From Halocafeteria seosinensis (taxonomy: Eukaryota): a stretch of DNA of 40,522 bases. This document shows positions 8,814 to 31,028 of the stretch, one piece after another. Within the stretch, counting starts at the first letter, position 1; every line of letters starts with the position of its first letter. The position numbers were made by a program, and so were the translations under genes. The notes under the pieces were generated by a model. That model saw nothing but the letters and a program-made list of their open reading frames with translations. It ran no database searches and was not told the origin of the DNA. The stretch lies in assembly GCA_001687465.1 (NCBI GenBank), contig LVLI01000074.1, forward strand, positions 1 to 40,522. The letters run 5' to 3'.

Positions 8814-10915
8814 ATGGAAATACGTTGGGGTGGTTGTATCGCTCTGCTTGTGGGGATTTGTATCCTTATACAGCCACTTTCGGCCGCCGGAATCGATACT
8901 CGGAAACAGGCTGCTCACGCTTTATTGAGGCCTTTTTCGAAGCACAAGAAGTTGGGAAGTGATGCGCAATATGTAAGCGCATCAGTTACGCAGGACAGAA
9001 ATGGGCGAAAATGCACCGTAAGTATGCAATGATGGATAAACGCCGCAAAGGCACTTCCTAGGATCATCTTCAACTGGGTCCTTCATTCATGTCAAGATTC
9101 ATTGTTTTCTCCTGCTACACAGATTACAAAGGGTGTTAACAAAGATACCGATGCCTATGGAGGATGGGATGATGCCATCGATAGCACTGGGTGGGGCTAT
9201 TTGAGCGTGAAAACTGGGTCTTCCTCTTCCGACCCCGAAGCTAAAGCCTATGCAGCAGGTTGTGTCGAGGGTTATTTGACCCCTACACGGATGGAGCAAT
9301 ACTGGGGGAATTATGCCCTCAATGAATATGGCCACAAAGGTCCCAGTGTTCGCCTCTTGGAATTCATAGAGCAACAGAAAGAGTTTGTGGAGAATCAAAT
9401 TGGGCGGAATAAACACAACGCCAATCTGTTTACGACATCAGAAAGCAAGTTTTGGGACTCGATGGCACTCATCATGGCCCAGTTCGATGGACTTTGCGAT
9501 GGCTACGCACAAGGAAGCATATCACCCATTCCCATGACTGAACTGGAATTGTACCTTCTCAATAGTGTGGGAGATCTTGAGGATCTCAACAATGTATTTC
9601 CCCGCAACGATTCGACACCGAAGATCTCTGGTATAAAGACCACACCGGCACCGCAGTGGACAGAAATGACTGATTGTTCTGGTCTGATCAAGGTTCTTCC
9701 TGATAATAGTGATATCGTGGTAGGCCATACCACATGGAGAGACTATTATGCAATGCTCCGCTCCTACAAGAGATATGATTTCGACTTTATGCACAATGGA
9801 GAAATCTCCATGTCTTCCTCTCCAGGTATGTTTCTTACATGTTATTCGCGAGTGTCCGAAAGTATATTTTAAAACCGTTAGCCGGTTTTCAGGCTTTCTC
9901 CATTCAAAGGACGATTTCTACGTTGTCCCTGGTATGGTCGTTTTGGAAACGACAAACTCGATATTCAACAAAACGCTCTATGATCGCTTGACTCCTTCAT
10001 GCGCTTTATCATGGCAACGAGCTGCTATAGGTGTGTGGCAAGCCGCTACACCCAAGGAATTCACCTCTCTGTTTTCCCTGTATAACTCTGGCACATACAA
10101 CAACCAATGGATGGCGATTCAGCTATCGCAATTTTCACCAGGGAAACCTGTTCCAGACAGTGACGTCTTTTGGATTATCGAACAAATCCCCGGCTACACA
10201 AAAAGTGCAGATGTCAGTGCAGTACTCCAAAAGCAGGGCTATTGGCCGAGTTACAATATTCCATACTTCAAAGAAGTGAGTGACGTATGAAGTAAAGAGC
10301 TAGAAATGGCGTATTGAAACTTTGTTTCTACTCAGATTTATACGATGAGTGGTTATGAGGAAATGTATAAGAAGCATGGTAACGATTTTTCTTATGAACA
10401 TTGTCCCAGTATGTAGCACAATTCTGATCGACGTGTTTTTCGTCCGACATAAGCATTGACTACAAATTTGCGGGAGCTAACATTTTCCGGAGAAATGAAA
10501 CTCAACTAGACTCGTTCACGAACGTGCAGTCTATTATGCGATACAACCATTACACAAGCGACCCGCTGTCGGACAATAACCCGATGAACGCTATTGCTTC
10601 GCGCGCAGATTTGATCAGGTAAGCGCGTGTGATGTCTGCGGTATCTTGGGACGTCGTGTAAACTTTAACGCTTTCTAATGCAGTGGCTCTCCAAAAGCGT
10701 TTGGCGGAGTAGACTCGAAAGTGGTATCCTTCACCTCCATACAGAAAGGACAACTAGGAGTGAAAGCGATTTCAGGCCCAACCGCGGTGTCGCAACCTCC
10801 GTTCTCCTTCAGCAATAGCGCAAACGGCACTTTCAGCAACGTCCCTCGAGCTGGAGTACCTGATACATGGAACTTCGATTGGGTCGAAACAACAGAGCAG
10901 TTGCCCACTATGTAG
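8814..10915 (+). CDS. Phospholipase B-like (PLBD family) lysosomal Ntn-hydrolase
   Basis: Signal peptide. Motifs TGWGYLSV, DCSGLIKV (nucleophile Cys), GHTTW, SKDDFY, ETTN, YNSGTYNNQW, EQIPG, YWPSYNIPYF, MRYN, AISGPT. Introns 9018-9122, 9826-9892, 10276-10335, 10409-10473, 10619-10683. Confidence 0.93.
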
Positions 10916-20792: not shown

Positions 20793-22675
20793 TCAGGCGC
20801 GCTGCTGATGATTAAGAGAGGCAGTCCGTCGAACAGCGTCGATTTCGTCAAGGCCACGAATCATTTCTGTAAAGTTTGGCGTACCTAGACCGGAAGCAGC
20901 ATCCCACCCCTGAGTCGCACTAAAACCAGTGGAGCAGCAGGTGACTTGCGTACACCGGTTATTACCTTGAGTAACGTCAGTAAACGCGGCGGGGTACTCC
21001 TTCGCCATCTTATACAACAGAGGGTTTGCAAAGCCTATGAGGCTACCGCCATTCTCCATTCTATGAGCATTCATTAGCGCAATCATACCAGCAAATACGG
21101 GGCATGAGAACGATGTTCCATCTCCATATAGATGTGGTCCCTCTAATTCTACATAATATGCATGACCAAGCGCCGCAACGTCAGGATAGCCTCTACCACT
21201 TGGATTAAAACCTGTGGCTGCAGGGTAAGCTCCCGGCTTGCGTAGATATTCCTGAACAACATCGGCCTGATAGGACGGAGCGGTATCATATTCAGAAAAA
21301 CCTCCTCCAGAGGTAATCAGGGAATTACTTCCCTCGATAGTACATACTACTTCCACCCCACCAACGGAGCAATTAACTTTGCTGCATATGGGACTGTCTC
21401 CTCCGATGCGAACGCTGCTGTACATTGTAGCTCCCAGTGCTGTCACGTAAGGTGAAGACGCAGGAAACATTGGGTTGGTATTGTTTGTTTCGCACTTGTC
21501 GTCATTATACCCATGGGAACCATCATCTCCACTTGCTGCCAACAGTGTGATACCACTGGCTCCTAGTTTCATAAAGTTAATGTTGACCTTTCTTACGTAT
21601 TCTTTACTACCTTCACCATTGGTACAAGGTGGAGAATGTGGTGCTGTGGGACACTGATCTGTCTCAGGAGCTCCAAACGACATAGACATCACATCTGGCA
21701 AATCGTCCCTTGCTCGTTTCAATGCATCGTTCGTGAATTGGAACATCCATTGCTTAACAGTCCAGTACCAATTGGTATTTTTCTGTCCCACTGCTCCTAG
21801 ATACTGAACATCAAGAGTTGACTCTATTGGAGGGCGGGTCGTGTTAAAGGGGCCAATGATCTTATCGATAGTAAACGAATCAATATCGGTCTCCTGGATA
21901 AACGTTTGAACATCGCTAGGATGGTATGCGGGGTAGCCATTAAACTCAATAGCCGATTGTATTGTCTGGGAGGACCCTTTCATGTTGATACCATACTGCA
22001 AGTTGAGTGTCTCAGGAACGACTGTGTAATTTCGCACATCCACGTTTGGTGATAAGCGTCCAAATCTTCCATCGGGGAAGCCAAACAAACCAGAAATAAA
22101 CTCAATTTGATCTTTGACCAGTGGCGGAACCTGAAACGCTCCAGTTACACGATTCACTGCTTTTCGTCGAGCTCCGTTCTTGAACACGTAAGCTGTAGTA
22201 CCAAACACGCGCTCTATCACCTGTACCTCGGCTTTGCATTCCAGGTGTGACCAAAACGATTCACACACCGCTCCTTGGCTGTCAAAATACTGAGTGACTT
22301 TCTGGACGATGTTTGGCTCGGTAGCAGTCAAACGATTAAGTGCTTCGGTACTCCAATATTTTCCATACGAAGGGCTGCAAAGAGGTATGAAGTTGGACAC
22401 AACATTGCCTTTTCGAATTCTGCTTATGGTCCTTACCTATCGGGATCGGTCACTGAATGGAAGACTTCCTCCAACTTGTCCAAGTTGGAATCCGGCAGCG
22501 CCACGTCAAATCGCATCAGCGTTTCCGGTGGGCATCTCTTGGCAATTGTCCACTCATCTCGGCGAATACCAGGAGACGCTCTTGCCCCTCGAGGAGCGAA
22601 AAGAATCAGTATAGGTATGGCCATCATCACGACAACCGTGGCTCGCTGGGGAGTGAGGACGTTGATTCCCAGCAT
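20793..22675 (-). CDS. Tripeptidyl-peptidase 1-like sedolisin (peptidase S53)
   Basis: Hydrophobic leader, prodomain (VTDPDSPSYGKY across intron 22375-22436), catalytic ESTLD, ASGDDG, GRGYPDVAA, GTSFSCP, GWDAASGLGTP. Start could alternatively be 22627. Confidence 0.93.
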
Positions 22676-23050
22676 TTCCCGTTTCCTGTTGCATTCATTC
22701 ACAAAACGACTCCCGGGAGCTTGACAGTCAAAGAAATAAGTAATCCGCCTGGGGGAAGTGAGTAAAATGTGGTTACCAACTCTGAAAAAATGGGTGAAAA
22801 TGCTTTGTTCTTCGGTCAACTCCGGCGTTGGGTTGAAGTTGAGTCCGCAGGTTGGCTATACAGATCAATTGGCTGAGTTTGATAGACCGATCCTCGTCGG
22901 ACATATTGTCTATCTTATTGAACATTATGTTCGTGGGGTCTTTGAAGCAGGAGAGAACTTAATTGAGCAGAAAACGCGGTAACGTCGGCTTGGAATCGGT
23001 GACGCCATCCCAGGATCTCTCTTATTAAGATCATTTAACCTTTACACGCG

Positions 23051-24637
23051 ATGGTACAGTGGGTTCACCCTCTATTATTGGTCGCTCTTTCCGTGGAAGT
23101 TGCCTCGGCGAATTTGAGACCGAGGTTTGCCGAAGTAAAGGCCATACCGACGGCACCTCCCTTACCCACATGCCCACCAACACCCCCACTTCCTCCACGA
23201 GACGCAATAGTTCCGTTGAACGATACCATTCTCTCGGAGATCAAGTCTTTTCTGGTGGACAACACGGTTGGACCATGTACAGAAGGAGCGCACTCACCGA
23301 GCTCGACGGGACTCAGTGCGGCTATCGTCGTTGGAGGTCATGTGCGCTATCTGAATTCTGGATGCGTGAGCAAAGATAAACCAAATACGGCCCCAACCAA
23401 TGAAACCATTTATCGCCTTGCTTCGGTGACCAAGTTATTTGCGGTAGAAACTGCCCTTCAGGCTGTTAGAGATGGAAAGCTGGCCAGTTTGGACGATGAA
23501 CTGAAGGAATACTTTCCGGACTTTTATATCAATAACCCTTTCGGATCAAGTCAACCAACGTTTAGGCAAATGATGAGCCAACTTTCTGGCACTCCCCTGG
23601 AAGGTCCGTGTGACAGCGCGGCATGCGAGATCTCAACGGAAAAGATCTTGCCACGGATTGCGAAACATAGTCGGCTCATGATGCCTCCTTGGAGCTATCC
23701 CAGCTACTCTAACTTGGGATACTCAATTTTCGGAAATCTGATTGCTGAGCGACTGTACAATATGTCATGGGGTGATTTCGTTGCAGAGAAACTCACTAAA
23801 CAACTTGGGATGGATAGCACGGGTCTGAATTATACATCCAGCGTGCTCTCGCGAATGCCTACGTTCTATCTTCAGGATGGCTCGGTTGCTCCCTTCCAAC
23901 CACTTGGATGGGGGAACCCATCTGGTGGTATGTACTCTACCAGCGCAGATATGGCAACCTGGATTTTACATACTCTCGGAGAGTGGCGACAGGAAGATTC
24001 GAATGGGCAATTTCGCCGAAATATGCTGAGGCAAATCCACGAGAATCCAGATGCCGAAACAGGGTTTGGCGCCCCATGGGAAATCTATAGAAGTGGTTCT
24101 TACCTCCTCCGTACAAAATCGGGAGGTTTACCTGGTTTGACATCATTTATTGCTATGATTCCCGAACTCGATTTCGGATTCGTCTTCCTGTGGAACGGAG
24201 TAGTTCTGGGGGCTGATGATGCTGGGCGAGCCCTGGGTAACTATCTTGGTCAGATTTTGAAGGATCAATATACCCAGTACCAAACTGAGAACTTCCCCGC
24301 TCCATCAAACAAATTCCTCTCAGAGTATATTGGAGTCTATTCTGGAATGGGGCTTAAAGCCGTAGTAAATGCGACGGAGGACCCAAGTTTGGGGAACCAA
24401 CTGGTGGCACATGTTGACGCTGGGCCGTTTGGGGAATTGAAGCTAAGGCCGATGCCGTCTGAGTCTGACCAATTCGTGTTTCGCATTTTCTATCGCCGGG
24501 ATCGCAGTGCTTGTATGGCAGGAGAAACGGCGTCCCATGCAGGTGAATGGGTCTTCTTCAAAACCATCGACAACGGCACCAAGGCTTTCTCAGTTCCGGG
24601 CATCCGGTACTGGGTCAACTTTACGGCTATCAACTAA
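23051..24637 (+). CDS. Secreted beta-lactamase/transpeptidase-like serine hydrolase (S12, LACTBL1-like)
   Basis: Intronless 528-aa ORF with signal peptide. SxxK (ASVTK), YSN, PSGGMYST, KSGGLPG. Confidence 0.9.
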   Translation: MVQWVHPLLLVALSVEVASANLRPRFAEVKAIPTAPPLPTCPPTPPLPPRDAIVPLNDTILSEIKSFLVDNTVGPCTEGAHSPSSTGLSAAIVVGGHVRYLNSGCVSKDKPNTAPTNETIYRLASVTKLFAVETALQAVRDGKLASLDDELKEYFPDFYINNPFGSSQPTFRQMMSQLSGTPLEGPCDSAACEISTEKILPRIAKHSRLMMPPWSYPSYSNLGYSIFGNLIAERLYNMSWGDFVAEKLTKQLGMDSTGLNYTSSVLSRMPTFYLQDGSVAPFQPLGWGNPSGGMYSTSADMATWILHTLGEWRQEDSNGQFRRNMLRQIHENPDAETGFGAPWEIYRSGSYLLRTKSGGLPGLTSFIAMIPELDFGFVFLWNGVVLGADDAGRALGNYLGQILKDQYTQYQTENFPAPSNKFLSEYIGVYSGMGLKAVVNATEDPSLGNQLVAHVDAGPFGELKLRPMPSESDQFVFRIFYRRDRSACMAGETASHAGEWVFFKTIDNGTKAFSVPGIRYWVNFTAIN

Positions 24638-25246
24638 GATTCTCATTCAATTAACGGCAACGAATCATAGTTTTCCAATGTTAAACAATGGAAATAGCCG
24701 GTGTTACCACGAGTGGAATGAAAACATTAACTACTGCAACCCAAGCTTCCTCTTACACTTCCAACTTCAGTTGTACAAACACTTGTCCTGGAATCTAGAA
24801 CTACCAAAAAATTCCGTCAAGTTACATTATATCTGCCAACAGAAAGTTTGTTCCATTCCAACTGCCAACAGGAGTTCTGCTTTCGTTTCTCTTTTCCGCT
24901 CGCTGCGTAGGCATGTACATCCTGTACGGCCGGCGGAGTGGAGTTGCCGCTTTGCTTTCTACGCGCGGCGCGCCCAAACCCTCAAGTTGAAGTAGCAGAA
25001 AGATACGGTTTTTCGACAAAGATATTCGCCATTCAGTACTTGTATTGTCGATTGTTCACCACGCAGTAGAGTAAACACGCTAAAGTATCCATTCCTTCGT
25101 TCATCGTTGGTTGCGAAAGTGTTAAAAGATTGCCTTATTGACGTGGTATGTGCCCTTGTTGAAGATCATTTCAGGTTTTGTCCGGGGCTGTTCCACGCTT
25201 TATACGCTCTATTTGGCCCCTATACACCACAGATTCAAGCGTAACG

Positions 25247-25968
25247 ATGGCGCACGAACGAAAAGCCGAGAACAAATTGGCCTCGCACCCGGAATTGTCC
25301 AAGGCGTACCCCATCGAAGGAGAGAGTGACCTTCTGAAAAAACTGGGAGGGAACCTTGAACATAGGGAGAACAACAGCGCATTACGTATTTCGGCTGTGT
25401 TGAATAGAACAGGTACGTGCTGCAGCATTCCTCTCTGTTAGTATGGAGGGAATACGGGGTAGATAGACTGAGTTGAAGCGCTTTCGACACATCATCCAAT
25501 GATTCTAGTGTTCGACGATTCGATTCCATGCAGGTCTTCCATTGGACAGATCATCCAATTATACTGCCACAAAGTATGAGGACAAGGAAGGGAATATCTA
25601 CGCTCTGGATGTGCAAGAACTCCATGAGATCCTGAAGAAGATGTTGGGGCCACCTCGCCACATTCGGAAACAAGAAGATGCCGTCAAATTCAAAGGCATT
25701 ATCCTCTTCGAGGGTGTTCCTAGCATCAAGGACCAAGTAAGTGTTCGATATATGCGGTATAGTGTGTGTTGTTCAATAATTTGTGTTTTGGCCTCGTTCT
25801 CTACGCGTGTGCGCGTGAGCATGTTCTCCTGTGTGTTCACTTGTTGATTGCTTTTTTGATATAATGCAGACCGGCCATTTCGATCTGTGGAATGGCAAGA
25901 CAACCGAGAGCGACGACTATTGGACCTCAGCATCCAACATCTGGATCTGGAATGCCCCTGCAGAATAG
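25247..25968 (+). CDS. Tae4-family (NlpC/P60-related) peptidoglycan amidase homolog, spliced, catalytic Cys replaced by Ser
   Basis: Exons 25247-25412, 25534-25736 and 25870-25968 give 155 aa: LGG...NNSALRISAVLNRTGLP...YALDVQEL..IL..MLGPP...KGIILF...TGHFDLWNG...WIW. This is colinear with bacterial Tae4 motifs as recalled (NxCxIRMSYxLN, KGII, GHxxLWNG). The 5' end is uncertain: there is an in-frame acceptor at 25174. Confidence 0.85.
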
Positions 25969-26334
25969 ATTGTTTCAATCTCGTGATCTTGTTTCATCTA
26001 AACAGGACATACTTGTAATGTTCTATGCCCGATGTTTCACCGAAATGCAAAGAGTTTCGGCTAGATCAGTATAGGACCATGTTAAATCGACTTAGTTTTT
26101 CCAGCTGGATATATTCAGTCCCAGTTACTAGTTTACAATTTAGTTTGCTCACCTCTTAGAGCTCCTTCCTAGTACACTCGTTGTGTTGTGCGCAAAGAAC
26201 AAAGAAACCCTTCGCGTGAGCGTGAGTGTTCCGGAAGCTGACTCCATGGTAGTTGTATGAGTTCCACCGGGATTGTCATTCCCGGTTTATTAATTTGTAC
26301 CTAGTTGTGTAAAAAAAAGGGAAAGAAAAAAAAA

Positions 26335-27790
26335 ATGCGCTTTCATTTGGTTCTGAGTGTGGTGCTTGCTTCATCCATGCTATGGATGAACGACGCAGCG
26401 GCATTTCACACTGCGCATCGTCCTGTCAGCTATTTAAGGCGTCATTCCACTGCCGATTCGGATCGTCTCGTTCCCATACAAGGCTCCACGGCGTTTGCCC
26501 GAGGCGTCTCCATGGGGAAAGCCCTCAAAGATAGCGTGGACGCTATCTTTGACCTCCAGAAACGGGAGTACGCGGAGCGCATGGCGTACTGGAAGTCTAT
26601 GGCGAAAAACATCGAGGAGTATATCGAGGAATACGCCCCCGTGACCTACGCTGAGATGCTCGGAATGAACCAAGCTGGGATCGAATGGGAGACCTTACTC
26701 CTGATGGCGTGCAATTACGAAATGTTCATGACCGACGGAGTTTGGCTCAAGGAAGGACTCACGGCCAAGGGGGAATTGTGGAAGAAAGTGTTACCGGAAG
26801 CTCGACAGAGACAAGGGCATTGTACTGCCTTCTCCTCCTACGGCACCACTGCCCAAGAACAGCCGCAATACGCTGGACAAAACAATGACGAAGATCCGCC
26901 CATGTGGGCCAACGCTACCCACGATGTTGTCATGCACCTCGGTAAAGGCGAGGCGAATGAATCCCTCATCTACACGCATCCAGGTAAGTCAGTGTTCATG
27001 GTCCCATTCTTTTAAGAAGCAAGTCTCATTCAGCTCGATGCGCGATGTCTTATAGGTCTTCCGGCGTACATGGGAATGAACAAGAACGGTCTCTCAGTCC
27101 TGTGGCAGTATATCGACAACGGAGAACGGAATATTAACGAGGGTATGTACGATAAAGAGAAAGTGCCGGGATGTGAGATGATGGTAGTGATTACGCCTCG
27201 TTTTCTCTTTCGTATTATTGCTGCAGGCGTTCCTACATGCGTCCTTTTGAGAGAGGTGCTCAAGTTTGGGAAGATTGAAGACGCTGTAGACTACCTAAGA
27301 TCTACACCGAGAACAGTTCCTAACAACTTCCTGCTGTCGCAATGTGGCTATGGAGCAAACAACATTGAATGTAGTCCGTAAGTACGAGATCTATCGTTCT
27401 CGACAACCCCATGCGCAGTGCATGTACAATAATTACTGGGTCTGCAGCACCCACTTTACTGAAGTTCGCGTTGCAAGAGGAGATGTGACACATGCCAATG
27501 GTATCATTTTCGACGAAGAAATGGCCAGTCATGAAATTCATATCGTCAATAACACGAGTCCAGCTCGGTATAAAGCCATCAAGGAAATGATAAATGAGTA
27601 CCGCAGTGGAATGAACCCTAGTGTGGGCATGAAAATGTTGTCAACCCCTCCCGTCTTTAACAATGATACCATGGCGAGTATGGTGTTCGATCCTCAGGAA
27701 GGTGCAATGCATATCCGATTTATGGGCGACCAAAACTACCAGAAGTTTTCCTTGTCTTCGGGATCCCCTCTCTGCAACCGTAGAAGGTAA
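26335..27790 (+). CDS. Peptidase C45 / acyl-CoA:6-APA acyltransferase-like Ntn-hydrolase, secreted
   Basis: Signal peptide. RGVSMG, EMLGM, autocleavage-site HCTAF, GQNND, GMNKNGLSV, GVP..VLLREVL. Introns 26984-27055, 27143-27226, 27378-27447. Confidence 0.85.
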
Positions 27791-28051: not shown

Positions 28052-31028
28052 CTACACCGCTTGAGCTGATTCTGATCCCTGATTGGTCAAGTTGCGGATA
28101 TCCTCCTCAGTAAGCAGTGAGGTGCCGAATGCCGCAGACTGTGGTAAGGGTTGGGCCATTTCTTTCAAAAATTTTCGAGCGAGTAGTTTCGACATATCCA
28201 CTGTTAGATTCAAATGTGCTTCCGGTAAGAACTGAGTAACCCACTGGGGTAATTTCGAACGCTTGTCGTATCTCGCATAGCGGCTATCGGCGAACACCAT
28301 AACTCCATAATCCTTCTTGCTCCTGATCACACGGCCCACGCACTGAGCTGACTGTCGAATCGCATCAAATGTCAAGAAGTCTTGCTCCTTTATTCTAAAC
28401 GTATCTCGTAAATAAACCAATCGTGCTCGAAGAACATGCGACAACGTATACTGAAATGGTATTCCAATCAAGATGACCAACCGGCCATAGTGCTTCTCAA
28501 AGTCAATTCCTTCGGCAACTTTCCCCCGCGCAACACTGAAGAAGACAGCGCCACGTCCAATATCGCAAGCTCGTTTGAAATTATTTAACGCCAGTGTCGT
28601 CTCGTATATGTCCTTGGTTTCGATGAATAACAATTTATGTTTCTGTGCGTTTGCATCCATAACTGTTGGAGTAGAGGTGAAACATAAAAGGATATCCACC
28701 CTCGTTGCTTACCTCTATCTCAGTTAAAGTTCCCATTTGGTACCATTTGGATACGATCATCTCCATGTACGAGTAAGATGGGAAAAAGACGACAGCACCA
28801 TCCGGTACAACAGAGCACATTTGTTCCACCATGGATCCATAGTGCCTTAAAATTGTCTCGTCATCTCTTGTTTCGTATTTCGTCGACAAAGGGGTTTGAT
28901 CAGAACCCCGTGTAATCATCATTGGGCAAATGCATGGTCGCGTGATGGACATCTCCAAAGAAGCTTGTACCACAGGTCGGAAGTTGAGCATTCTGGAGTA
29001 CATATCTAATGGAGATAAAGTACCCGAAGTTATGATGACGGACTGAAATTTGTCGAAGACTGGTTTCACCGCCAACGAAGCATCTGCAGTCCATCAGTGG
29101 TAAAATAAAAAGTAAGATATCTACAGGTCCACTGGAGGTCGCAAAGGCCCAACATACCTAGACACGCTAGCTGGAGAACTGGGTCTGGAATATGCGGCGT
29201 TTGTGAGTTAAACGGTTCCAATATCACCATAAATCCCACAGAGTATGTGCATATAAGTGTTGCAAAGTCAGCCACGAGCTGCAACGGGGAGAACTCGTCG
29301 ACATCGGTGATCTGCAACCAAGCTCGAATACACAGTTAACTCTTTGCTTGCGTTACATGTTGCAAACGAGTCTGACATACTTGTAACGTCTTCATCAGCG
29401 AATTTAATCGTGAATAAGCAAACTTGAGGGGTTCAGTATCCATTTGGAGCGTGTTGCCCATGCGCTGTAGAAATCCTTGTGGAGTTTCAGATTCGACTTG
29501 TTCGACGCCGATTCTTTGCCTTAAGAAGCGAACTACCTGTTTCATGTACCGCACAAATAATTCTGCATTTCTTATGTTCCCTGGAAGCGCTTCCTCCACA
29601 ACATCCTGGGGAAGCACGGGAGCAGCCAGCATTTCCTCTCCTCCCCCGGTACCCTCTTGTTGTTGCTGTCGAGTATTACCGTTATTCTGCGCTGAGGAAC
29701 GAGGATGAGCATCTCCAAATGCTCCAGAATTCGACAGTCCCTGAACAAGCCGCTGGTATTCATCCTGCAGTCTTTGCGAGTCCGCTTCTTTCATTCTGTA
29801 GTCGTAAGCAATCTCATAGTTTGTCGTCCCCGGCAACAATGAGCATCACACCACCGTACCTCTTTACTTCCGTATCGAGTTTGTTGAGATTTGAATCTGC
29901 TACACTTAGCATTCGTTTATTCAAGGTTATACTCAAGGCCTCTATACACACCTGCATCGTATCATTGGAAGTATCTCTGAGTTAAGCAAGATGAGTTCGG
30001 GAACTTGTCACCACCTGACTCACGTTATCAATGTTGTGTCCCTCATCAAAAACCACGATACTCTTATCTTCCAATTCTCGGGTGACCATTCCCGCTACTT
30101 TCGGGTCCAGCATGTATTGATAGTTGTAGACAACGACGTTGGCATAATTGATGACATGCCTCGTGAGAAAGTACGGACACCACCCTTTCTCTTTTCCTAA
30201 TTCTTTCAGATCTTCTATAGAGTAAATACCTCGTATGTCAGCATCGGTCCCGGATCTGTCCAAAACATCGCTAGTGTGTAAGTGGAGCAAGAGTGTACAA
30301 CAGAGTGAAATACATACTTTTCGTATTCCTCAAAGTACTGGCACAACTCTACGGATGAATCCGTTTCAGCTTTGGCGCGAACCCATGAAGCGGTTAAATT
30401 CCGACATGCCGAATCTACTGTTTCTCTTTCTGATTCCTCGGAGACTGTGGGATGAATACACCTGTAAAAAATCGTAATACATTACGTGGAGTCTTCCCCC
30501 CCGAGGAAAGAGCCAAGTGCGTGCACGTACATGTTTCTTCGCGAACTGAGACACACCGCTAGAATTTCTTGTGACGGATGCGTAGAGACCTTTTCTCTGT
30601 ACTCGACCACTCTTTTGAGCTCCCGAATCGTCTGAATAGCATCATCATAATAGTCGAGGAATTCAAAGTGCCCTTGCTTCGTCCAAAGCGAAGCGAAGCA
30701 GGTAAGAGCCCTACTCACTTTCGTCATTTCCGGGACAGTCCGTGTACAGTAGATAAGTTTCCCACACGAGTCCGGGTAGGCGTATTGGTACGAAGTAATC
30801 AATGCCAAGAGAGACACGGTCTTCCCGGTCCCCGTAGGCATTTCCAATATGGCATCTCCTTTGGCATCAATGGCTCTCTGTATTGACGCTACACTGTGCA
30901 TACATACATGCATGCATGAGTATCATTAACTATGGACTTACCTTGAGCTCCACCATGTACTGGAATTGCTCCTTATAGATGTAATCATAGGGAAAAAACA
31001 CCTCCAGACCATCAATATGCACTTTCAT
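28052..31028 (-). CDS. XPD: TFIIH helicase subunit XPD/ERCC2/Rad3
   Basis: [80 protein letters not shown]. Nine canonical introns traced. Confidence 0.98.

What the first reader, a model, noticed from the sequence alone, without database searches (positions are those of the whole stretch)
25247..25968. Intron-containing eukaryotic homolog of the bacterial T6SS toxin Tae4, with a Cys-to-Ser active site
Seen: three exons, split across ORF-track entries, splice into a 155-aa protein that follows Tae4 motifs end to end. The catalytic His (TGHFDLWNG) is kept, but the nucleophile position in NxCxxRxS is Ser (AGC at 25376-25378, one base from TGC). Known: Tae4 effectors are Cys-His DL-endopeptidases that cut peptidoglycan, and domesticated amidase effectors (dae) have been described in several eukaryotes. 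Inference: this is a domesticated horizontally acquired gene that is now either a serine-type amidase or a catalytically dead peptidoglycan binder/sensor in a bacterivorous protist. Whether this lineage or the Ser variant is already described cannot be determined here.
Basis: partly seen in the sequence, partly recalled or inferred. Interest (0 to 1): 0.85.

Follow-up and report, generated by a model that had tools for sequence, protein, structure and literature searches.

The report
Disarmed bacterial wall-cutting enzyme in eukaryotes
This is a spliced eukaryotic gene for a relative of the bacterial cell-wall-cutting toxin Tae4 that has serine in place of the cutting cysteine, as do most of 21 distant relatives that likely also come from microbial eukaryotes, so it likely no longer cuts and would instead bind something, most plausibly bacterial wall fragments.

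Summary
Exons 25247-25412, 25534-25736 and 25870-25968 give a 155-aa protein identical to a EukProt transcript product; spliced contigs of three runs skip both introns; no run shows TGC. Pfam Tae4 56 bits, and the model matches Salmonella Tae4 (Z 20.1, 1.6 A). A fourth, non-coding exon lies upstream, so no signal peptide is predicted. New result: the Ser is not a one-off. The protein sits in a supported clade (99/95) of 22 divergent rows, none with the Cys (Ser 19, Gly 2, Ala 1). His126 is kept in only 14 of 22, against 111 of 111 outside. Several members show intron-like read-through, so the clade is likely eukaryotic; its hosts were not named by any search. AU tests separate it from Branchiostoma Dae4 and from a canonical T6SS Tae4; no donor was found. 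Best reading: an old pseudo-amidase family, likely cytosolic, predicted to bind rather than cut. Peptidoglycan as ligand is inferred only. Eukaryotic Tae4 genes, and one Cys-less Nematostella copy, are already published; a whole Cys-less clade was not found in the searches. New variant of a known kind.

The parts
25059..25145 (+). upstream non-coding exon (5' UTR; true start not determined)
   Evidence: X2 contig covers 25059-25144 and joins to 25232; no ATG, in-frame stops
25146..25232 (+). 5' UTR intron, 87 nt, GT..AG
   Evidence: skipped in X2 and X4 contigs; ends checked
25247..25412 (+). coding exon 1 (Met1 to first base of Gly56)
25376..25378 (+). AGC, Ser44 at the catalytic Cys position of Tae4
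   Evidence: no variant in 4 runs; same Ser in close relative P0010/P0152
25413..25533 (+). intron 1, 121 nt, phase 1
   Evidence: skipped in X2, X3, X4; homology of P0010/P0152/P0003 breaks at the same place
25534..25736 (+). coding exon 2 (Gly56 to Gln123)
25737..25869 (+). intron 2, 133 nt, phase 0
   Evidence: skipped in X2, X3, X4; homology of P0002/P0003 breaks at the same place
25870..25968 (+). coding exon 3 (Thr124 to stop); His126 codon at 25876-25878
25969..26236 (+). 3' UTR, at least to where the X2 contig stops
   Evidence: X2 contig 25870-26236; contigs cannot show the true end

Best explanation
The gene encodes a spliced 155-residue protein with the Tae4 amidase fold and serine in place of the catalytic cysteine; it likely no longer cuts peptidoglycan, is predicted to stay in the cytosol, and would act as a binding protein, most plausibly for peptidoglycan stem-peptide fragments from bacteria. 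Shown: gene structure, splicing, Ser44, His126, family and predicted fold, membership of a Cys-less clade. Inferred: one old transfer from bacteria into a microbial eukaryote, loss of the nucleophile at the base of the clade, later erosion of the His and of the DATGH loop, and continued selection on the fold and on a changed, more acidic site (Asp at 42, 43, 81). Inferred by analogy only: the ligand. This member keeps more of the ancestral site than most of its clade (Asn42, Asp122, Thr124-Gly125-His126, Tyr140), so it is the best candidate to still hold the gamma-D-Glu-mDAP stem that Tae4 cuts.
For: Nucleophile column in 22 clade rows: Ser 19, Gly 2, Ala 1, Cys 0; outside Cys 106 of 109. His126: 14 of 22, replaced by six different residues (C, A, Y, V, F, I); outside 111 of 111. 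P0016 and P0017 lack both. Tae4 needs Cys44 and His126 (PMC3695027, passages and section 9) and nvDae4 needs its Cys (PMC8713801, section 8). The structural core stays conserved (Gly56, Gly110 22 of 22; Ser49, Ala51 21 of 22) at nearest-neighbour identities of 40-51%, which argues for a kept function. No hydrophobic N-terminus in P0001 (best 11-residue hydropathy -0.06, Branchiostoma P0176 3.15) and no coding upstream exon. Precedents: RipD, a dead NlpC/P60 domain that binds peptidoglycan (PMC12067865, passages); SERA5, a papain-fold protein with Ser for Cys and a non-enzymatic role (PMC4671257, abstract).
Against: No binding or activity data. P0001 itself keeps Ser, His and acidic residues at 138-139, so a Ser-His-Asp triad is not excluded for this member; Asp/Glu at 139 is kept in 17 of 20 clade rows. 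The crevice residues conserved outside have drifted in the clade (Asn42 106 of 109 outside, Asp 14 of 22 inside; Arg81 87 of 111 outside, Asp 13 of 22 inside), which may mean that peptidoglycan binding is lost too. A cytosolic protein does not meet intact walls in a food vacuole. The outside rows were collected with a His-bearing query, so 111 of 111 is inflated by selection, and rows are not independent, so the Fisher p of 1.6e-7 overstates the case. The hydropathy scan is crude; P0004 (2.28) and P0159 (1.94) score higher.
Confidence: 0.48

Rival explanations
1. A dead Tae4 fold that has been put to a use unrelated to bacterial walls: the reshaped, acidic crevice would bind a host protein, peptide or ion, as a housekeeping adaptor.
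For: Clade-specific conserved residues replace the bacterial ones (Asp42 14/22, Asp43 17/22, Asp72 19/22, Asp81 13/22, Arg97 16/22, His57 16/22); the DATGH loop is eroded; no signal peptide; stand-alone small proteins with no added domain (Pfam on 23 rows).
Against: P0001 keeps Asn42, Asp122, Thr124-Gly125-His126 and Tyr140, the ancestral site; published domesticated Tae genes serve against bacteria (PMC8713801; 10.1101/2020.04.10.036376, passages). No partner is known.
Confidence: 0.3
2. An active serine amidase: Ser44, His126 and Asp138 or Asp139 would form a triad on the papain-like fold and cut peptidoglycan or another amide.
For: Ser is kept in 19 of 22 rows rather than drifting freely; His in 14 of 22; Asp/Glu139 in 17 of 20. 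In Salmonella Tae4 an Asp already backs the His (PMC3695027).
Against: Ser is replaced by Gly or Ala in 3 rows and His by six other residues in 8 rows of one clade; the position that matches Salmonella Asp137 by numbering is Ser137 and varies; Ser is also the commonest harmless swap at a helix start (general knowledge); SERA5 with the same swap is inactive.
Confidence: 0.15
3. A decaying recent transfer, a contaminant or a sequence error.
For: AGC is one base from TGC; no named close relative.
Against: Three introns spliced in contigs, link to eukaryotic genes on one contig, no TGC in 4 runs, 3 of 3 coding differences synonymous, same Ser and same intron positions in relatives at 74-86% identity, clade-wide trait.
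Confidence: 0.02

Closest known systems
Tae4 of Salmonella Typhimurium and Enterobacter cloacae (PDB 4hff, 4j30, 4jur, 4hfk; PF14113)
   Same: Profile over 2-125 of 125 positions; E 3e-8 by sequence; model Z 20.1, rmsd 1.6 A, 142 aligned, 30% identity to 4jur_A; His126 kept.
   Different: Ser for Cys44; no Cys135/Cys139 pair; introns; no Tai4 or T6SS genes around it; tree with the clade held to the E. albertii Tae4 group is rejected (p-AU 0.003).
Animal Dae4 (Nematostella nvDae4; Branchiostoma Tae4-domain proteins P0014/P0176)
   Same: Tae4-family gene living in a eukaryote; Nematostella has a second copy predicted to lack the catalytic Cys (PMC8713801).
   Different: nvDae4 is secreted and active; Branchiostoma repeats keep Cys and His. 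Clade plus Branchiostoma as one group is rejected (p-AU 0.031). The Nematostella sequences were not fetched, so their place in the tree is untested.
Giardia muris Tae4
   Same: Lateral Tae4 gene in a protist (PMC7641422, passages).
   Different: Described as a recent gain in one gut parasite; its active site was not seen here; not in my tree.
RipD of Mycobacterium tuberculosis
   Same: NlpC/P60 fold with a dead triad that still binds peptidoglycan (PMC12067865); works-like model.
   Different: Bacterial, exported, another branch of the superfamily; both Cys and His replaced.
Plasmodium SERA5
   Same: Papain-like fold, Ser for catalytic Cys, kept by selection without enzyme activity (PMC4671257 abstract).
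   Different: Unrelated family and role; analogy only.

Membership tests
Tae4 family (PF14113) | Profile score above the curated cut-off over the whole domain | tested here: met
   56.3 bits against 27; 2-125 of 125; all 23 rows of alignment A1 match
Tae4 family (PF14113) | Tae4-type NlpC/P60 papain-like fold | tested here: met
   Model pLDDT 89.6; Foldseek: all 11 hits with E<=0.001 are Tae4-type chains; Z 20.1 to 4jur_A, next unrelated row 8.0
Active Tae4 amidase | Catalytic Cys | tested here: not met
   Ser44, no Cys in the protein
Active Tae4 amidase | Catalytic His | tested here: met
   His126; lost in 8 of 22 clade rows
Active Tae4 amidase | Third residue (Asp137 in Salmonella) | tested here: inconclusive
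   Ser137 by numbering, Asp138/Asp139 next to it; column varies outside too; model coordinates could not be measured
Active Tae4 amidase | Cleaves gamma-D-Glu-mDAP bond | not testable with these tools
   needs assay
T6SS effector Tae4 | Bacterial gene beside tai4, in or tied to a T6SS locus | tested here: not met
   Neighbours are eukaryotic genes; compare E. albertii locus L001
Dae4 (domesticated amidase effector 4) | Tae4 homolog fixed in a eukaryotic genome and expressed | tested here: met
Dae4 (domesticated amidase effector 4) | Secretion signal, as in nvDae4 | tested here: not met
   No hydrophobic N-terminus, no coding upstream exon within the 101 spliced bases seen
Dae4 (domesticated amidase effector 4) | Same transfer event as animal dae4 | tested here: inconclusive
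   Rejected for Branchiostoma (p-AU 0.031); Nematostella and Giardia sequences not in the tree
Dae4 (domesticated amidase effector 4) | Antibacterial activity | not testable with these tools
   needs assay
Non-catalytic peptidoglycan binder (RipD-like, works-like only) | Binds peptidoglycan without cutting | not testable with these tools
   inferred from site erosion and precedent

The most novel reading that the evidence does not exclude
An old, widespread and undescribed family of cytosolic bacterial-wall sensors in single-celled eukaryotes, built from a disarmed interbacterial toxin whose crevice recognises the gamma-D-Glu-mDAP stem: a protist counterpart, by convergence, of animal NOD1 and of receptor-type PGRPs (both analogies recalled, not tested).
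Probability: 0.2. Interest if true: 0.85.

Novelty: new variant of a known kind. Interest (0 to 1): 0.58.

Why it matters
Published domesticated Tae genes are kept as secreted weapons. Here a whole branch seems to have been kept for a long time after losing the nucleophile and the secretion signal, which would be a second fate for transferred toxins: weapon to binding module. How single-celled eukaryotes detect bacterial wall material is poorly known (general knowledge), and this small, Cys-free protein with solved relatives makes one candidate directly testable by binding assays. It also warns that the label 'Tae4 amidase effector' on eukaryotic or metagenomic hits can be wrong about activity.

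Tried and rejected
No whole genome is held, so paralogs with an intact Cys in the same organism could not be sought. No listed run is on record as RNA; X2-X4 are read as RNA-like only because they skip GT..AG introns of many genes; they are 2 samples of 1 study, and X1 may be the window's own source. Contig depth over the gene is higher than over neighbours, but depth cannot rank genes and is not used. Exon 1 alone found no Tae4 in Pfam or PDB. DNA context of clade members was not obtained: JGI metagenome scans with A2 and P0013 and a viral scan found nothing; the GTDB scan with P0009 gave one spurious hit in a response-regulator-like ORF; single-protein scans reach close relatives only. A profile search of 401 genomes of one bacterial phylum found 11 matches in 10 genomes, best 46.7 bits, all with Cys and His: a small sample, not absence. 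Plasmids gave 2 records, phages 1. ESM Atlas: nearest clusters are bacterial Tae4 clusters; clusters under 50 members are not searched. A donor was not resolved: the first tree put the clade weakly (82/68) beside an N-Q-C/GDHIDLW bacterial group, the second left three deep branches unresolved. Earlier findings of the scan: none returned. The founding Dae paper (Chou et al. 2015, doi 10.1038/nature13965) is not held, so its list of eukaryotic dae4 genes was not seen. No complex prediction was run.

Full report
Observation. Exons 25247-25412, 25534-25736 and 25870-25968 give 155 residues with Ser44 (AGC, 25376-25378), His126 and no cysteine. Since 499 splice combinations keep a frame open, outside support was needed. 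A search with exon 2 alone returned one protein among 33 candidates, P0001, a complete ORF from a EukProt transcript, identical to the model. Of four public runs that hold the region (one study, at most three samples), X2, X3 and X4 have contigs that skip both introns, and X2 and X4 also skip an 87-nt intron at 25146-25232; X1 runs through all three. No run differs at 25376-25378. The three coding differences are synonymous, too few for a test. The 101 spliced bases upstream of the ATG have no ATG and carry in-frame stops, so no signal-peptide exon was found. One X1 contig spans 20500-31000, tying the gene to a multi-intron helicase gene and other spliced genes. The host is a eukaryote; no call named its lineage, so 'bacterivorous protist' stays unverified.

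Family and fold. P0001 scores 56.3 bits on Pfam Tae4 (cut-off 27) and E 3e-8 to Salmonella Tae4 chains, with Ser44 on the Cys and His126 on the His. The AlphaFold2 model (pLDDT 89.6) matches 4jur_A at Z 20.1, rmsd 1.6 A over 142 residues; the first non-Tae4 row is at Z 8.0, and all 11 Foldseek hits with E<=0.001 are Tae4-type chains. The Atlas's nearest clusters are bacterial Tae4. Salmonella Tae4 needs Cys44, His126 and Asp137 (PMC3695027; passages and section 9 read).

The Ser is a clade trait. The search of 1.84 billion representatives gave 183 hits at E<=0.001, of which the best 150 were listed. The nearest ones lack the Cys. A quick tree of 129 domain rows put 21 Cys-less rows on one branch (SH-aLRT 99) and 3 further Ser rows (P0019, P0056, P0132) elsewhere. 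I then took 22 full-length clade rows, leaving out near copies (P0113, P0160-P0162) and ten fragments, against 111 other rows (domains of 105 residues or more, plus an annotated E. albertii Tae4). With the trait columns removed, 62 of these rows gave the clade 99/95 (bootstrap not fully settled); a second tree of 50 rows, with 15 clade rows and 12 genome-derived bacterial rows, gave 94/89. Nucleophile column: Ser 19, Gly 2, Ala 1 inside; Cys 106, Ser 3 of 109 outside. His126: 14 of 22 inside, with C, A, Y, V, F, I in the rest; 111 of 111 outside. The outside figure is inflated because distant hits were collected with a His-bearing query, but six different replacements inside one clade stand by themselves. 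Other site residues changed too: Asn42 (106 of 109 outside) is Asp in 14 of 22, Arg81 (87 of 111) is Asp in 13 of 22, and the DATGH loop is eroded, while the core is kept. Nearest-neighbour identities among the non-redundant rows are 40-51%. All 23 rows of alignment A1 carry the Tae4 domain and, but for one marginal DUF hit, nothing else.

Who carries the clade. Apart from P0001, the 19 clade clusters looked up come from ENA, Logan, JGI or NCBI assemblies without an organism name or UniRef record, mostly on contigs of 0.5-16 kb. Relatives at 74-86% identity (P0002, P0003, P0010, P0152) have the same Ser where they cover it and lose homology exactly at the window's intron positions. In more distant rows, Pro/Ser/Leu-rich inserts or leaders end in Gln just where homology resumes (P0015, P0016, P0072 twice, P0111, P0160) or begin with Val (P0015, P0031, P0093), as read-through of GT..CAG introns would give (junctions picked by eye, DNA not seen). 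P0111 and P0160, 87% identical, differ wholly upstream of that Gln. A profile of the clade found 11 matches in 10 of 401 genomes of one bacterial phylum, best 46.7 bits, all with Cys and His. So the clade is likely eukaryotic, but this is inference; locus scans failed.

Origin. Holding the clade together with Branchiostoma P0014 is rejected (p-AU 0.031), and with the E. albertii Tae4 group also (p-AU 0.003). The clade forms a third deep branch of PF14113 beside the canonical group and an N-Q-C/GDHIDLW bacterial group. Transfer from bacteria is the simple reading because the family is overwhelmingly bacterial, but no donor is shown, and a T6SS effector as donor is not shown.

Mechanism. A catalytic Ser-His pair should be kept across the clade; it is not, so a dead enzyme is the best reading (about 0.8 in all). 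P0001 has no hydrophobic N-terminus, so it is predicted to be cytosolic. A kept fold and new conserved acidic residues point to a binding role. I put peptidoglycan fragments first (0.48) because P0001 keeps most of the ancestral crevice and because RipD shows the same path (PMC12067865, passages); a host partner comes second (0.30) because the clade's crevice has changed charge and the cytosol holds no walls. A serine amidase (0.15) stays open for this member, which keeps Ser44, His126 and Asp138/139; SERA5, with the same swap, is inactive (PMC4671257, abstract).

What is known. Eukaryotic Tae4 genes are published: Nematostella nvDae4 is secreted and active, and its second copy is predicted to lack the Cys (PMC8713801, passages and section 8); Giardia muris has a recent Tae4 gain (PMC7641422, passages); tick Dae2 is the model case (10.1101/2020.04.10.036376, passages; PMC4832377, passages). 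A Cys-less Tae4 clade in microbial eukaryotes did not appear in the listings; one paper on gene gains in a heterotrophic protist (PMC5447177) has no Tae4 or amidase mention in its text or in 12 of 19 supplements searched. Chou et al. 2015 and its supplements could not be read and may list further eukaryotic dae4 genes, and most subscription papers are outside the library.

Verdict. Observation confirmed; interpretation partly supported. It is a Tae4-family protein and a domesticated gene, not an active-type Tae4 and not shown to be an ortholog of animal Dae4. New variant of a known kind; interest 0.58, resting on the clade-wide disarming, with 0.85 if the sensor reading proves true (probability 0.2).

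Noticed in passing
window 23039-24637 +: Single-exon beta-lactamase-family gene (PF00144, E 6.9e-40) directly upstream, with a hydrophobic N-terminus and SxxK, YxN and KSG-like motifs visible in the translation; a secreted penicillin-binding-type hydrolase could act on wall peptides. A 36-base match with a loose end at 23589 in X1, X2, X4 hints at a paralog elsewhere.
   Followed up: no
window 20793-22436 -: Sedolisin-like peptidase (Pro-kuma_activ plus Peptidase_S8) with an intron at 22375-22436; with phospholipase B at 9033-10287 the window is rich in digestive-type hydrolases.
   Followed up: no
window 26335-27790 +: Four-exon gene (introns) with a signal-like N-terminus and no Pfam hit in its separate exons; an internal Cys-Thr-Ala-Phe motif recalls N-terminal-nucleophile hydrolases (recalled, untested).
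   Followed up: partly
window 28052-31000 -: Multi-intron helicase gene (Helicase_C_2), XPD/Rad3-like by recall; contigs run across it and the convergent upstream gene.
   Followed up: no
P0014, P0176-P0179: Branchiostoma proteins with tandem Tae4 domains that keep Cys and His; named only 'uncharacterized'.
   Followed up: partly
L004-L013: A bacterial PF14113 group with N/Y/D-Q-C and G[DG]HIDL motifs; the few neighbouring ORFs scanned gave no Tai4 or T6SS Pfam hit, so some family members may not be T6SS effectors.
   Followed up: partly
P0019, P0056, P0132: Three separate Cys-to-Ser changes outside the clade, each keeping His; origin unknown.
   Followed up: no
P0111, P0113, P0160, P0072: His-rich inserts just before the strand that bears the catalytic His; in P0111/P0160 the His itself is Ile. 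A metal-binding add-on or intron read-through.
   Followed up: no
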